Assembly: GCF_006345805.1 (NCBI RefSeq) | Contig: NC_043002.1 | Coordinates: forward strand, 24,304,001 to 24,368,000 | Source of the DNA: Octopus sinensis | Lineage: Eukaryota | DNA length: 64,000 nt | Direction: 5' to 3' | Shown: positions 12,780 to 29,258 of the stretch, in pieces | Position numbering within the stretch: the first letter of the stretch is position 1 | How the letters are laid out: the number at the start of each line of letters is the position of its first letter | The notes under the pieces: generated by a model | Told to the model about the DNA's origin: nothing | The model's input: the letters and a program-made list of their open reading frames with translations, nothing else | Database searches by the model: none | Position numbers and translations under genes: made by a program

Positions 12780-12820
12780 CTAGAGACTAGTTTCTGAGTC
12801 TTTGCTTGTCATCAGTCTGG
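12780..12820 (-). ncRNA. Minimal hammerhead ribozyme-like motif (Penelope/retrozyme type)
   Basis: Minus strand CCAGA-CTGATGA-CAAGCAAAGACTCA-GAAAC-TA-GTC-TCTAG; intact core, palindromic ACTAGT stem III, weakened stem II. Confidence 0.65.
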
Positions 12821-13004
12821 AGTAGCATGGCCTGCTAGTTGGAGATGCCTGTCTAGCTTTTGTAAACATATAAGAATTCTAGTGAAATGGGACTGACACA
12901 AATTAAGTTGACAGTATACAACTACTCTATCATACCACTACTGCTTATATCTCTTTGAGATATTTAGAAATGTAATATTTCTATATTTATATATGTATTT
13001 TTTG

Positions 13005-13800
13005 AGTTGTTGAGTAACTGCCTCAACACCCACTCATAATGTTGTAAGATCTGGGTCAGGCAGCTCCTACCTGGTTGAAAACCATGCTGGGTATCACTCA
13101 GCAAGTTATTTTCTTCAAGGAATGCGATTAGTTCCCCTCTGATTATCTGTTCCATGACTTTGCTGATGTGTGAAGTCAGAGAGATAGGACTATAGTTTTT
13201 GACATCTGCTCTGCTTCTCCCTTTATGGATTGGGTATATTATTCCCTCCTTCAGCTTGCTTGGCAGCTTGCCATTTGCAAGAAAGCTCTGGTAGAGAATC
13301 TGGAGGGGTTTTGCCAGGGCATGCTTACACGATTTGAGGAGGATTGCTGGGAAATCATCAGGACTAGCAGTTGAGTTTGTGTCTACTTCATATATGGCTA
13401 GTAGTATATCTTCTTTGCTAATGTCAATGTATTCCATTGTAATTGCTTCACTGGTTATAGGTGAAGCAGCAAAGAAGTCCACTGGTTCGTTCACTTGTCT
13501 GTGTTCCAATGGGGTTGTAAAGACACTTTTGAACTGGTCATTTAGTATCTCACTGATCTTAGTTGGACTGTCTGTGAGGGAGCCATCCTTTTGGAAGAGG
13601 GGTCCTATCTTGCAGTGTACTGAGGCTGTTTCTTTCGCGTGATGAAAGAAGGCCTTTGGGTTTGACTTAATGTTTTTTATAACCCATGCTTCTTTGTCTG
13701 CTTTCTCCCTCATAGGATTATTGCAGCCTTTTTTGGATCTCCATTAGTGTTGTTTTTAGGCAGGACCTTTCGCTACTTTTGGGATGTTGGTTGAGTCAAT
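13005..13800 (-). mobile_element. CR1/Jockey-group LINE reverse transcriptase fragment
   Basis: ORF 12964-13713 with IKSNPKAFF, NYSPISLTSHISKVME and QHGFQPGRSCLTQ motifs; truncated at both ends. Confidence 0.88.
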
Positions 13801-13958
13801 TTGCTTTACTCTAAGTTGAAAAAGTCTTAACTGAAACTGGTACTAAAATGTTCCTCGTGATAAAATTATTTTAGCATTTTCTACCTTGTCCTATTTTCTT
13901 TATACATATCAACTTGTGTATTACTTTTTAACCTTCTACATACATATATATATATATA

Positions 13959-15298
13959 TCATCATCATCGTTTAACGTCCGTTCTCCATGCTAGCATGGG
14001 TTGGACGGTTCGACCGGGGATCTGGGAAGCCAGAAGGCTGCACCAGGCTCCAGTCTTATCTGGCAATGTTTCTACAGCTGGATGCCCTTCCTAACGCCAA
14101 CCACTCCGTGAGTGTAGTGGGTGCTTTTTACGTGCCACCTGCACAGGCGCCAGGCGAGGCTGGCAACGGCCACGGTCGGATTGGTGTATTTTATGTGCCA
14201 CCGGCACGGAGGCCAGTCAAGGCGGCGCTGGCATCGGCCACGAGTTGGATAGTGCTTTTTACGTACCACCAGACCAGGGATCCTGGCTGGTTCAATTCGA
14301 TTTCACTTTCGCTTGCCCCAACATGTCTTTGCAAGAAAAGGGGGTTGGCATGGGTGTCTGTCGTCGGATGAGGTTCTATATCGACTTCGCTTGCCTCAAC
14401 AGGTCTTTGTGTCCAAGGGAGGAAAGGCATTCATAAGTGGGCTGGGCTCACTTGTCCTGCCTGGTCTTCTCACGTACAGCATATTTCCAGAGGTCTCGGT
14501 CGCTGGTCATTTCCTCAGTGAGGCCTAAAGTTCGAAGGTCGTGCTTCACCACCTCATCCCAGGTTTTCCTGGGTCTACCTCTTCCACGGGCTCCCTCAAC
14601 TGCTAGGGATTGGCACTTTCTCACACACCTATCTTCATCCATTCTCGCCACATGACCATACCAGTGCAATCGTCTCTCTTGCACACCACAACTGATGCTT
14701 CTTAGGTACAACATTTCTCTCAAGGTACTAATGCTCTGTCGAGTAAGTACACTGACATTACACATCCATCGGAACATACTGGCTTCATTCCTCATGAGCT
14801 TACGCATGTCCTCAGCAGTCACGGCCCATGTTTCACTGCCATGTAGCATGGCTGTTCGTACACATGCATCATACAGTCTGCCTTTTACTCTGAGCGAGAG
14901 GCCTTTAGTCACCAGCAGAGGTAAGAGCTCCCTAAACTTTGCCCAGGCTATTCTTATTCTAGCAGTTACACTTTCAGTGCACCCACCCCCACTACTGACT
15001 TGGTCACCTTGATAACAGAAGCTATCAACTACTTCTAGTTTTTCCCCCTGGAAAGTGACGGAAGTTGTTTTCTGCAGATTTTCGGAGGTTAATGCTCCCG
15101 AGCATCTGCCACATACAAAAACTATCTTCCCAGTTAGCCTACCTTTGACATTGCTGCACCTCTTATGTGTCCATAGCTTACACTGGGTACATCTTATAGA
15201 GTTTCTACCTACACCTTTTCTACAGATCGAGCAGGGCCATTTTCCTGAAGACATTTGTGGATTGTCTACCTTCCTACTTATTAGTACTTTGGTTTTAG
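13959..15298 (-). mobile_element. 5'-truncated RTE-clade LINE with open ORF end
   Basis: ORF 14448-15320: KTKV, C4HC3 finger, LEVVDSF, MLHGSETW, WYGHVARM, GRGRPRKTW; 3' UTR and (GAT)n tail. Confidence 0.93.
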
Positions 15299-26464: not shown

Positions 26465-28385
26465 GTAAGTATGTATGTTTTGACCTTTGATTAAAATACA
26501 GTTATTGTCTCACCACCGTAGATTTAGTTTTTGTATTGGCTATGGTACCAACCAGGCTTGAGATCATATGCCTATATTATCAAAAATGTTCTTACTTCCT
26601 TAAGTTAGTAGAATATGTTTTGAGGGAGATTTGTCTGCTATTTCTAGCAGATGAAGTGACCTTAAAGATGCTTCCACATTGAGTTCATCAGATCATCAAA
26701 TCTTTGTCATGGTGGTCAATGTTTGCTGGAAGAACATTGTATATGTTTCATTTAAAAGTGTGATTATTGACATCTTTTGACAAAACATAGTGATATTTAT
26801 TTGGTGTTATTGAATGCTGGGTTAGCCCTGATCCAGCAGATCTATGACCAGAGGAACTCTAGTCTTGACATCCCATCTTTTCCCAGATAATACATCCACA
26901 ATCACATTATCAAAAGTGTTGTTCTTTTCCAAGACACATTATCCAAAGTGTCATTTTTCTTTTCAAGACAATGAGTGATTTAGCTGCCATTTTTAGCATT
27001 ACACAGAAGCACCCTCATTGGCTTGTTTCTCTGTAAAAGTTATTTTTAACTTTTCTGATTATTTTATAAATTTATAGTGGCTGCCGTTGGTTGTTCAAGT
27101 GTGTGTTATTAAATGGAAAAACAGTTAGTATGAATCACCATAAGACATTTTTGTGTGTAAATATATTGTTTATTCTGTGCTCACCTTTTGTGGTGGAAGT
27201 ATATAGTATGATACAAAAGCATGTGTGTTTACATACAAAGTAAGTTTTGATCTTTGCTTTTGCACTGAAAGAAATAACATATAATATTTGTATTACAGTG
27301 TGTATGCATGTGTGTAATGAGAACAGTCATTTTGAGAATATATTTTGTGTTGAGGTGAATAGACATGTGAGTTGCACATGGGAGATTGCATGTGGAGCTG
27401 CAGAGAAGACATGTGTCTTTGACCAAAGCCTGGTAGGAACTGTGACCGTTTCTACAGTTTCACTCAGAATGAGGCTAGTGTCTCAGAATGAGGCTACTGT
27501 ATCAAAGCAAGGCTAGACACCTCATTGATATATTTGTCTGCTGTGCAGGTCAACTCATATATTATTATGCCTAGGTTACATAGCTCTTAACATCAGTGTA
27601 CTTCATCTGATATTGGAAGTCTGCTTCAATTCTAGTTGGTAACTTCTGTTTATAAGCTATTAAACACAACAGTTGTTAATCACTCAAAACCTACATTTCA
27701 GTTTTATATATCTGTGGCTTCTTTTTAATTGTTTTACATCTGTTTGCCATGTTGAATTGTATGAGATGGTTTATTGGTTGGATAAATGGTGGTTTTTATT
27801 GCTTGATGATGCCCTTCCTACTGTTAACCACTCAAGTGTAGAATAGGAGTGGAGCATAGTTGGGTGCCTTGCTCAGGAGCTCACAATGTCAGTAATAAGA
27901 TCTTAGGATCATCATTGTTGTCATTGTTTAATGTTCGCCTTCCATGCTAGCATGGATTGGGTGGTTTGACTGAGAACTGGTATGCTGGGCGACTGCACCA
28001 GGCTCCAATCTGATTTGGCAAGGTTTCTACTGCTGGATGCCCTTCCTAATGCCAACCACTCCGAGAGTGTAGTGGGTGCTTTTTACATGTGGTTATTAAT
28101 AGTGAAGCACCTTCACCTTACAACCCATGTCCTTCTGAGTCCTTATTAATTAATCAGATTTCTTTCTGCTCTTTATGAAAGTTTATTTAGATATTGTTTT
28201 TTCCCTCTGATTTATTGTACCTATAATTGAAAATCATTAATTAACAGGCTCCTTATAGTTTTATACATAAACTGTATCAGCAATAAAATTATTAACCAAA
28301 GAAAACCTCAGTTATAGTATCATACTACCGTTCACTGTTTTTATTAATTAAGCATGCTAATGTATTTTCCTGGATTTTATTACAG

Positions 28386-28519
28386 TTTTATACAACCACT
28401 GGTTTGCCGACAAAGACGTTGGAACAGAACATGTGTGCAGTGTGTGGTAATGACATTCTTGTTATGAACAATGAGAATGCAATCATAGAAAAAACCTGCA
28501 AATTAACATGTAATCATAT
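28386..28519 (+). CDS. RNF121: RNF121 coding exon 6 (FYTTTGLPTK...CAVCG...LTCNH), first half of the RING-H2 domain
   Basis: TTACAG acceptor; ends at U12 donor GTATCCTTT (28520); 134 nt, phase 0 to 2. Confidence 0.95.
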
Positions 28520-28815
28520 GTATCCTTTATTTCGTGTCTGGCATCAATTTATCCTAACCTGCTTTTGTCCTGTCCTCATCCCCACACACAGATACAACAC
28601 CTTCAATATCTGGAACCTAATATAAATATAATTACAATTGTTTGTATGCTGTTGTTATGTATTAGATTATTATTATTATTTGCTTATGTGTGGTGGTGTG
28701 AAGAACAGGGTATTTGCACTGTTTTTACATCTTTCTTCTGAGTTCAAATCACATCACAGTTGACTTTACCATTCATCTTTCTAGGCTTAATAAAATAAGT
28801 CAAGTACTAGTATCA

Positions 28816-29258
28816 CTATACATTATTTACATTTGACAGATATTTGTCCTCATCTTGTTTGTTGTTAACATAATGTTTTGGCTGATATACCCTCCAGCCT
28901 TCATCAGGTGTGTTGGAGAAATTTTGAACCTGGGTTCTCATTCCTAAGGTATTTTTTGATGTTATTATTATCATTATTATTATTATTATTATTATTATTA
29001 AGGTCACTGCCTGGAATTGAACTTGGAATTTTGGGGTTAGTACGCCATATGGCCACAAGCATATGGCGTAGTGGTTAAGAGCGCAGGCTACTAACCTTAA
29101 TAATGAGAACCCAGGTTCAAAATTTCCCCAAGACACCTGATGAAGGCTGGAGGGTATATATCAGCTGAAACGTTGTGTTAACAACAAACAAGATGAGGAC
29201 AAATATCTGTCAAATGTAAATAATGTACATAATTCTTCATCTCTTAAATATAGAACTG
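28816..29258. mobile_element. Fold-back element: head-to-head tRNA-derived heads plus Penelope-like terminal repeats carrying hammerhead motifs
   Basis: Inverted arms 28819-28942 and 29102-29227; central tRNA-like A/B-box sequences in both orientations; flanking direct repeat TAGTATCA (28808-28815, 29259-29266) inside an older SINE. Confidence 0.75.
29132..29179 (+). ncRNA. Minimal hammerhead ribozyme-like motif, sense to RNF121
   Basis: GACAC-CTGATGA-A-GGCTG-loop-CAGCT-GAAAC-GTT-GTGTT; stems I and II pair, stem III is the palindrome AACGTT. Confidence 0.7.

What the first reader, a model, noticed from the sequence alone, without database searches (positions are those of the whole stretch)
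12780..29179. At least six hammerhead-ribozyme-like motifs of about four families in the introns of one gene
Seen: CUGANGA...GAAAC-palindrome-GUH layouts at 12780-12820(-), 19935-19980(+) and 29132-29179(+), with decayed versions at 15446-15515(-), 19631-19676(+) and about 28866-28912(-). Stems differ between families, but each family has a tiny palindromic stem III (ACTAGT, ACATGT, ACTCGAGT, AACGTT). Established: this minimal type I layout is typical of Penelope-like elements and retrozymes, which cleave best as dimers. Inference: a diverse, probably unannotated set of ribozyme-bearing non-autonomous retroelements, with no clear intact Penelope ORF in the window.
Basis: partly seen in the sequence, partly recalled or inferred. 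Interest (0 to 1): 0.8.

Follow-up and report, generated by a model that had tools for sequence, protein, structure and literature searches.

The report
tRNA-led Penelope element with hammerhead ribozyme
The six self-cutting-RNA motifs in the introns of an octopus gene are real and come from four families of jumping genes, and the largest family is a protein-coding element whose RNA likely starts at a built-in piece of a transfer-RNA gene, an arrangement my paper searches did not find described.

Summary
Observation confirmed. All six motifs sit where stated, in introns 1, 2 and 6 of an Octopus RNF121 gene, and belong to four repeat families. A (~350 nt) and D (~550-590 nt) are ORF-less, self-paired, circularly permuted units of retrozyme type; B (~305 nt) is an old relative. 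C is not non-autonomous: it is the pLTR of a coding Penelope/Poseidon-type element (RT + GIY-YIG, ~2.6 kb) whose ORF starts before and reads through a textbook minimal hammerhead. New point: a tRNA-Arg(ACG)-derived A/B-box cassette is fixed between the stop codon and the hammerhead, and 40 of 86 unselected copies begin within -8..+4 nt of its first base (exact-word counts fall fivefold across it). One full-length copy also begins there, and the sense strand has no TTTT run. This likely marks an RNA polymerase III start for the element's own RNA; transcription is untested. Most window motifs are decayed, but the two B copies are predicted to assemble one complete cross-copy hammerhead on the pre-mRNA strand of intron 2. 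No cleavage or expression data. Hammerheads in such elements are known; the tRNA-led arrangement is a new variant. Interest 0.55.

The parts
12657..12998 (-). Family A insertion: 5'-truncated unit (12657-12888, minus) with an inverted arm (12887-12998, plus); intron 1, antisense to RNF121
   Evidence: blastn of natural copy L036 on the window; unit period 343-353 nt
12780..12820 (-). Family A hammerhead; core intact, stem II and stem I weakened in this copy; family closes stem II with C.A (24 of 30) or U-A (6 of 30 have U)
15295..15583 (-). Family D insertion (5'-truncated unit) beside a TA repeat; intron 1, antisense
   Evidence: unit period 546-575, 589 between L442/L443
15445..15516 (-). 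Family D hammerhead variant: family core CCGAUGA (U4C), long stem II with U.U at its base; this copy also has G5A
16992..17032 (+). RNF121 exon 2 (exon 1 lies 7.6 kb upstream of the window)
19620..20040 (+). Family B insertion: one full ~304-nt unit between two cleavage-site motifs; intron 2, sense to RNF121
19631..19676 (+). Upstream B motif: core and stem II destroyed, palindrome, GUC site (C 19671) and 3' strand of stem I intact; predicted substrate half of the cross-copy ribozyme
19935..19980 (+). Downstream B motif: core, 5-bp stem II and palindrome intact, own 3' stem I strand broken; predicted catalytic half of the cross-copy ribozyme
28819..29054 (-). Inverted arm of the family C insertion, including the dead hammerhead at 28866-28912; intron 6
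29057..29096 (+). 5' part (A box, anticodon arm) of the tRNA-Arg(ACG)-derived cassette; the fold-back junction sits at 29055-29056; the B box is deleted in this arm and present in the inverted arm
29103..29260 (+). Start of the family C ORF (ATG 29103-29105) running through the hammerhead to the end of the PLE tail; 8-bp repeat TAGTATCA at 28808-28815 and 29259-29266 flanks the insertion
   Evidence: in-frame in natural copies L321, L328
29132..29179 (+). Family C minimal hammerhead: 5-bp stem I, bulged A, 6-bp stem II, ACGU palindrome, GUU site at 29174

Best explanation
The six motifs are type I hammerhead sequences carried by four Penelope-related retroelement families in introns 1, 2 and 6 of octopus RNF121, and the largest family (C) is the end of a protein-coding Penelope element whose RNA likely starts at a built-in tRNA-derived RNA polymerase III promoter. 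Shown for C: the order RT-HTH-GIY-YIG ORF, stop, ~40 nt, tRNA-Arg-like cassette, (AAT)n, ATG, hammerhead inside the first 25 codons, two 3' ends ~30 nt apart; copies pile up at the cassette's first base; none pile up at the cleavage site. Inferred: in a tandem master, Pol III starts about 2 nt before the cassette and reads a TTTT-free unit; the element's protein starts reverse transcription internally at the two tail sites, as shown in vitro for the anole Poseidon, and copies uncleaved RNA back to its 5' end. From the first pLTR that gives the abundant ~280-nt SINE-like copies, often with a fold-back arm as in this window; from the second pLTR it gives ORF-bearing copies. Cleavage would cut the start codon off the ORF, so the ribozyme likely acts as a dimer- or protein-dependent brake or processing step rather than as a requirement for insertion. 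A, D and B are ORF-less units that likely arise by read-through transcription, dimer cleavage and circularisation, and are copied in trans by a Penelope-type enzyme. Most window copies are predicted inactive; the B pair is the exception.
For: Coding element: GIY-YIG end upstream of the cassette (atlas neighbours PF01541/PF26215 at 0.95-0.97), RT, full-length natural copy L126, 551-aa stop-free frame in L300. Cassette follows the stop in 27 of 30 ORF-end loci (four of them are one duplicated insertion). Cassette aligns from base 1 with the genome's tRNA-Arg(ACG) genes (score 65-68, 2000 shuffles max 44), best of 10 isoacceptor sets (66.5 vs 55.5), with A and B boxes kept. 5' ends: of 86 independent unselected loci 23 continue into the ORF, 63 do not, 40 end at -8..+4, about 0.043 per nt against 0.001-0.006 upstream of -21; exact 20-mer counts 989 just upstream, 4938 inside the cassette, 12175 (19-mer) after the ribozyme. 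L328 is pLTR-from-G2 + ORF, and the inverted arm of L301 ends at G1. TTTT runs: 0 in 2632 nt of L126 (shuffle mean 3.7, P 0.017) and 0 in the 2698-nt column majority (codon shuffle P 0.035), against 8-9 in 769-782-codon ORFs of another Penelope-like family in this genome with the same T content. A and D: circular permutation with constant period, inverted arms, circular folds z -6.3, -7.1, -6.2, -2.5, longest ATG frames 33-78 aa, no PLE protein match in 64 A/B/D loci. Literature: PMC4209133, PMC7229834, PMC11167929, bioRxiv 10.64898/2026.07.22.740005.
Against: No transcript start, Pol III occupancy, cleavage or circular RNA was observed. The TTTT deficit is only borderline against the element's own codon use (P 0.035-0.045), and decayed copies carry some runs (17 in 30 copies, 2 in L300). 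A short hairpin straddles the cassette start, so the peak of 5' ends could be a reverse-transcriptase stall or fold-back site; 14 of 63 short copies end at +5..+20 and 9 at -22..-9. An uncapped Pol III RNA must still be translated, and nothing here shows how. Only one full-length copy starting at the cassette was seen among 30 long copies. A (C.A closing stem II) and D (U4C, U.U) carry fixed departures from the canonical core; U4C lowers activity in vitro (PMC3088659 passage). No relative with DNA closer than about 30-55% identity was obtained to test whether the cassette is special to this lineage.
Confidence: 0.6

Rival explanations
1. The short family C copies are an independent tRNA-headed SINE (tRNA head + Penelope tail + hammerhead, like Sm-alpha) transcribed by Pol III, while the coding element is transcribed by Pol II and merely carries the cassette as a passenger.
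For: 63 of 86 cassette loci lack ORF sequence; 0 of 30 best matches to one short copy's cassette continue into the ORF, which may indicate a short subfamily.
Against: L328 joins a cassette-first pLTR to the ORF and L301's inverted arm stops at G1; in the anole Poseidon the template needs ORF sequence beyond the tail (PMC11167929), which a SINE ending at the tail lacks; the ORF is TTTT-free.
Confidence: 0.2
2. The cassette is an old SINE or tRNA-pseudogene insertion without promoter function; 5' ends cluster there because the hairpin at its start stalls or folds back the cDNA made from a longer Pol II RNA.
For: A palindrome straddles G1 and at least 6 loci show a clean fold-back there; inversions are general in PLE insertions (PMC8557442 passages).
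Against: Many copies end there without fold-back; A and B boxes are kept while the T stem is broken and no tRNA is called; the palindrome is as well explained as the scar of a fold-back at an RNA end; fivefold drop within 60 nt.
Confidence: 0.15
3. The B pair in intron 2 is a host-retained intronic ribozyme that cuts RNF121 pre-mRNA at 19671, rather than a chance survivor of an old retrozyme.
For: The minimum-energy fold of 19655-19980 is the cross-copy hammerhead (z -4.9); stem II 0.85-0.99 and stem I 0.43-0.97 over 30 intervals; the upstream copy has 7 derived changes in 29 columns of its unused half, the downstream copy none, and the 12-nt GAAA-to-GUC stretch is identical; all 4 other B loci are broken; it is on the sense strand.
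Against: Stem III probability ranges 0.00-0.90 with the interval folded; the motif was picked for looking intact; a unit's own two ends are expected to pair; orthologous introns could not be read. This rival concerns B only and does not exclude the best explanation.
Confidence: 0.2
4. The motifs are chance look-alikes in AT-rich intron DNA.
For: Rfam does not score them.
Against: Excess over shuffles; cores fixed in family alignments; placement in the pLTR of a Penelope element as published.
Confidence: 0.02

Closest known systems
Minimal hammerheads of metazoan Penelope-like elements (Cervera and de la Pena 2014, PMC4209133; read parts 1-2 of 4)
   Same: Family C: short stem I, unpaired base between 9 and 10.1, G10.1-C11.1, palindromic 15.2/16.2, location in the pLTR, inverted pairs and mostly single truncated copies. 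B has the same bulged A.
   Different: No tRNA-derived leader is mentioned in the parts read; D's U4C with a long stem II and A's C.A closure are not among the variants described there.
Poseidon of Anolis carolinensis, PAc (Frangieh et al. 2024, PMC11167929; read parts 1-2 of 4)
   Same: ORF starts in the pLTR and overlaps the hammerhead; two internal RT start sites define the tail; uncleaved RNA is the template; C-terminal GIY-YIG.
   Different: In C the ATG lies 34 nt upstream of the core, behind a tRNA-derived cassette and an (AAT)n tract; the promoter type of PAc is given only as 'likely in its pLTR'.
Animal non-LTR retrozymes (PMC7229834, parts 2-3 of 6; bioRxiv 10.64898/2026.07.22.740005, parts 1-2 of 5)
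   Same: A, B, D: ORF-less units, GC under 50%, type I hammerhead, self-paired circular fold, tandem or more-than-unit copies, co-occurring PLEs.
   Different: Mostly dispersed truncated monomers with PLE-style inverted arms and TA-repeat sites rather than long arrays; D exceeds the 150-450 bp given in PMC7229834; circular RNA not shown here.
Schistosoma Sm-alpha SINE-like elements (passages in PMC2770079 and PMC6765202)
   Same: tRNA-related Pol III promoter upstream of a type I hammerhead, tens of thousands of copies.
   Different: Sm-alpha is non-coding with a canonical hammerhead; here the tRNA cassette is part of the coding element itself and the hammerhead is the minimal PLE type.
Helenus and Cassandra TRIMs (Kojima 2024, PMC10886601, passages)
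   Same: Small-RNA-derived Pol III promoter inside the terminal repeat, boxes kept, tRNA fold lost.
   Different: Those are non-autonomous LTR elements without ribozymes; C is an autonomous-type Penelope element.
Conserved intronic hammerheads of amniotes (review passage, PMC7761336)
   Same: Retroelement-derived hammerhead on the sense strand of an intron (B pair).
   Different: Cross-species conservation defines those and could not be tested here; B needs two half-copies.

Membership tests
Type I hammerhead ribozyme | CUGANGA and GAAA core with NUH site | tested here: met
   Family majorities of A (30 of 30 at six core bases) and C; B by 6-copy alignment; D with U4C. Broken in three of the six window copies.
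Type I hammerhead ribozyme | Three stems closing at stem I | tested here: met
   stem III stable only across two copies
Type I hammerhead ribozyme | Rfam RF00163 gathering score | tested here: not met
   No match in the window or in good A and C copies; other families in this genome do pass (8 of 52 matches)
Type I hammerhead ribozyme | Self-cleavage | not testable with these tools
   needs an in vitro assay
Penelope-like element, Penelope/Poseidon clade (family C) | Single ORF with RT and C-terminal GIY-YIG | tested here: met
Penelope-like element, Penelope/Poseidon clade (family C) | pLTR with hammerhead, inverted 5' arm, 30-40 nt tail | tested here: met
Penelope-like element, Penelope/Poseidon clade (family C) | No Cys-pair linker between RT and EN (present in Neptune and Nematis) | tested here: met
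   absent in translations of L125/L126, present in the other family L427
Penelope-like element, Penelope/Poseidon clade (family C) | RT tree placement | not tested
   no reference set of named PLE proteins was available
Non-LTR retrozyme (families A, D, B) | Short ORF-less repeat unit with type I hammerhead, tandem or circularly permuted | tested here: met
   B on only five loci
Non-LTR retrozyme (families A, D, B) | Highly self-paired circular fold | tested here: met
   z -6.3 and -7.1 (A), -6.2 and -2.5 (D); -4.9 (B, linear)
Non-LTR retrozyme (families A, D, B) | Accumulation as circular RNA | not testable with these tools
   only assembled contigs were offered
tRNA-derived SINE (short family C copies) | 5' tRNA-related head with A and B boxes and a 3' end shared with an autonomous partner | tested here: met
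tRNA-derived SINE (short family C copies) | Own non-autonomous master lineage | tested here: inconclusive
   the head is also fixed in coding copies (27 of 30) and one coding copy starts at it
tRNA-derived SINE (short family C copies) | Pol III transcription | not testable with these tools
   indirect only: boxes, 5' end peak, TTTT deficit

The most novel reading that the evidence does not exclude
Family C is a protein-coding retrotransposon transcribed by RNA polymerase III from a captured tRNA-Arg head in its own pLTR: one TTTT-free transcript serves as uncapped mRNA (tRNA-like leader, (AAU)n spacer, AUG, hammerhead inside the ORF) and as template for both full-length copies and thousands of SINE-like run-off copies, a SINE caught while still inside its parent.
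Probability: 0.5. Interest if true: 0.8.

Novelty: new variant of a known kind. Interest (0 to 1): 0.55.

Why it matters
How Penelope elements are transcribed and what their hammerheads do are open questions. Family C offers thousands of copies that likely record the RNA's 5' end, and predicts an uncapped Pol III mRNA for a 2.6-kb coding element, which can be tested directly. It would also show a route from Penelope elements to hammerhead-bearing tRNA SINEs such as Sm-alpha. The B pair is a cheap test of whether octopus introns hold retained ribozymes, as amniote introns do. The bare finding, hammerheads in Penelope-type repeats of a mollusc, is ordinary.

Tried and rejected
Rfam scans did not score the motifs; the miRNA matches are microsatellites. 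My first descriptor missed the motifs because it required paired bases directly after the core; one search replaced it. ARAGORN called no tRNA in 16 cassette loci. No RNA holder was listed on record; laying four probable RNA runs on 3500-20040 was swamped by SINEs and says nothing on ribozyme expression. No solved structure matched. No coding partner sharing sequence with A, B or D was found: tblastn blank, and an intact Penelope-like family with a Cys-pair linker ending at TA repeats shares no BLAST match with them. Dimer folding of natural A and D tandems was not completed because the second copies were damaged; cofolding family majorities gave no clean double hammerhead. Within-family covariation was not counted: copies are neutral decays of one master. 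The inverted pair at 7064-7105/7356-7397 has CUGAGGA..GAAA but no stem III or NUH layout and was rejected. Lunse et al. 2017 was not held. Earlier-findings look-ups returned nothing.
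Full report
Setting. The window is AT-rich animal DNA at G000:C6:24304001-24368000. Its main gene is RNF121: an exon matches a protein named in Octopus vulgaris at 100% over the aligned part, and tblastn of that protein places coding exons at about 16992, 22669, 24581, 26234, 28380, 31900 and 34817. Contigs of 4 of 4 laid runs (RNA status is the tool's guess) join exon 2 to exon 3 and to an upstream exon that is absent from the window and lies 7.6 kb before it. So the 12.8 and 15.4 kb motifs are in intron 1 on the antisense strand, the 19.6 and 19.9 kb motifs in intron 2 on the sense strand, and the 28.9/29.1 kb pair in intron 6.

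Observation. All six motifs are present. Perfect core plus GAAAC-palindrome-UH occurs twice against 0.02 expected in 100 shuffles. Rfam does not score any of them, although RF00163 finds other families in this genome, 8 of 52 matches over the cut-off. Genome searches give four families: A (2319 candidates, 40 scored, 91-95% identical; 264 exact 20-mer matches), D (857 candidates; 36 exact 18-mer matches), B (four other loci at 66-73%) and C. Copy by copy: A has an intact core but damaged stems; D has U4C plus G5A; the inverted C arm has G12A; the upstream B core is destroyed; the 29137 and 19940 motifs keep core and stem II.

Families A and D. Copies are truncated, often carry an inverted arm, end at TA repeats and run past the unit end into the unit start, with periods of 343-353 and 546-589 nt. 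Natural units fold as circles far better than 25 shuffles (z -6.3, -7.1, -6.2, -2.5) and hold no ATG frame over 78 codons; a PLE protein finds nothing in 64 A/B/D loci. This fits non-LTR retrozymes (PMC7229834, parts 2-3 read) and the view that they are non-autonomous PLE derivatives (bioRxiv 10.64898/2026.07.22.740005, parts 1-2 read). A resembles the Rfam consensus in stem I and loop II (CAAAGA against CAAAUA) but closes stem II with C.A in most copies (C in 24, U in 6, opposite A in 29 of 30). D has U4C in 35 of 36 exact matches; a passage of PMC3088659 says U4C lowers activity in vitro yet allows viroid infectivity. Their mobiliser is not identified; an intact Penelope-like family with a Cys-pair linker that also ends at TA repeats is a candidate but shares no sequence with them.

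Family C is coding. Upstream of the hammerhead, L008 carries a GIY-YIG-type C terminus (atlas). L126 is a ~2.6-kb copy with inverted 5' arm, tail, RT and EN; relatives at 56-68% identity carry PF00078 and PF26215; L300 holds 551 stop-free codons. In L321 and L328 the frame runs through the hammerhead into the ORF, and in L328 it starts at an ATG behind the (AAT)n tract. Copies end at two places about 30 nt apart. Both features match the anole Poseidon, where reverse transcription starts at two internal sites, uncleaved RNA is the template and cleavage needs the protein (PMC11167929, parts 1-2 read). The ribozyme is the minimal type of PMC4209133 (parts 1-2 read). At most 3 of 30 unselected 3'-end loci begin within 20 nt of the cleavage site (one locus gave no alignment).

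The tRNA cassette. About 40 nt after the stop codon, 27 of 30 ORF-end loci carry a 76-nt segment (two have it deleted, one ends before it; four loci are one duplicated insertion). It aligns from its first base with this genome's tRNA-Arg(ACG) genes and better than with nine other isoacceptor sets (only 10 sets were sampled). A and B boxes are kept, the T stem is broken, and neither ARAGORN nor Rfam calls a tRNA. I took the first 90 exact matches of a central 20-mer on contig 1, dropped 4 (three duplicates of L192, one second arm of L180) and classed 86: 23 continue into the ORF, 40 begin at -8..+4, 9 at -22..-9 and 14 at +5..+20. Genome-wide exact counts agree: 989 just upstream, 4938 inside. 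The window copy is of this kind, folding back at 29055-29056. L328 is a cassette-first pLTR joined to the ORF and the inverted arm of L301 stops at G1, so some ORF-bearing templates began there too. The sense strand has no TTTT run in L126 or in the column majority (P 0.017 by dinucleotide shuffle, 0.035-0.045 by codon shuffle), whereas another Penelope-like family with the same T content has 8-9, as its own codon use predicts. Decayed C copies carry 17 runs in 30 copies. This is supportive, not decisive.

Mechanism. Shown: anatomy, homology, 5' and 3' end positions. Inferred: Pol III starts at about -2 in the upstream pLTR of a tandem master and reads through the unit; the protein primes internally at the tail sites and copies uncleaved RNA to its 5' end, giving ~280-nt copies from the first pLTR and long copies from the second. 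Translation of an uncapped RNA is assumed, with the (AAU)n tract as a possible unstructured leader (speculation). Cleavage inside codon 24 would remove the start codon. Rivals are an independent SINE with a passenger cassette (0.2) and a stall or fold-back hotspot on a Pol II RNA (0.15).

The B pair. The downstream copy keeps the catalytic half and the upstream copy the substrate half; together they form stems I (5 bp), II (5 bp) and III (8 bp) around an intact core, with the cut after 19671. That fold is the minimum-energy structure of 19655-19980 (z -4.9). Over 30 intervals stem II holds at 0.85-0.99 and stem I at 0.43-0.97, but stem III ranges from 0.00 to 0.90. Changes fall mostly on the unused halves (7 derived against 0 in the 5' half), though the upstream copy is also more changed further downstream (9 against 3), and the four other B loci are all broken. 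Selection in the host, or luck plus ascertainment, cannot be told apart without orthologues; I give retention 0.2.

Novelty. Hammerheads in PLEs and retrozymes are well known, and 235 type I matches are reported in giant squid (PMC6962438, passage). Ten full-text searches returned no description of a coding Penelope element with a tRNA-derived leader or of these octopus families; a 2026 repeat annotation of Octopus vulgaris does not use the word ribozyme in its main text (PMC13282606, passages; supplements not seen and may list the family). Repbase, Dfam and most subscription papers were not searchable; Ohshima and Okada 1994 on octopus tRNA SINEs was seen only as a reference. Closest precedents are Sm-alpha and Helenus (passages). 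Verdict: real, mostly ordinary in kind, with one new variant worth testing; interest 0.55.

Noticed in passing
L261-L290: A further abundant hammerhead family (core flanked by GUAC stem I) and variants with 100-nt stem II pass or approach the Rfam type I cut-off elsewhere in this genome; none is in the window.
   Followed up: partly
L427-L430: Young Penelope-like family (97-99% identical copies, 706-782-codon open frames) with a Cys-pair linker, ending at TA repeats, with no clear hammerhead found; candidate mobiliser of A and D.
   Followed up: partly
G000:C2:3121910-3157884: Tandem array of about 90 tRNA-Arg(ACG) motif matches, mostly at ~206-bp spacing.
   Followed up: no
window 14448-15234 (-) and 38407-39196 (+): Two 96% identical fragments of an RTE-like LINE 3' end with a PHD-like stretch; the family label is recalled.
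   Followed up: no
window 12964-13743 (-): Reverse transcriptase fragment (weak RVT_1) directly beside the family A insertion; looks CR1-like (recalled label).
   Followed up: no
window 61833-62132 (-): Mariner-type transposase fragment (PF01359).
   Followed up: no
window 7030-7110 and 7350-7440: Inverted repeat pair of MITE type that contains CUGAGGA..GAAA without a hammerhead layout.
   Followed up: partly
window 54912-59898 (-): Probable exons of a second gene on the minus strand.
   Followed up: no
L291:2300-2460: A distant Penelope-like ORF in a metagenome contig has the same minimal hammerhead layout as family C after its stop codon, with no tRNA-like segment visible and 15 TTTT runs in its AT-rich ORF.
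   Followed up: partly
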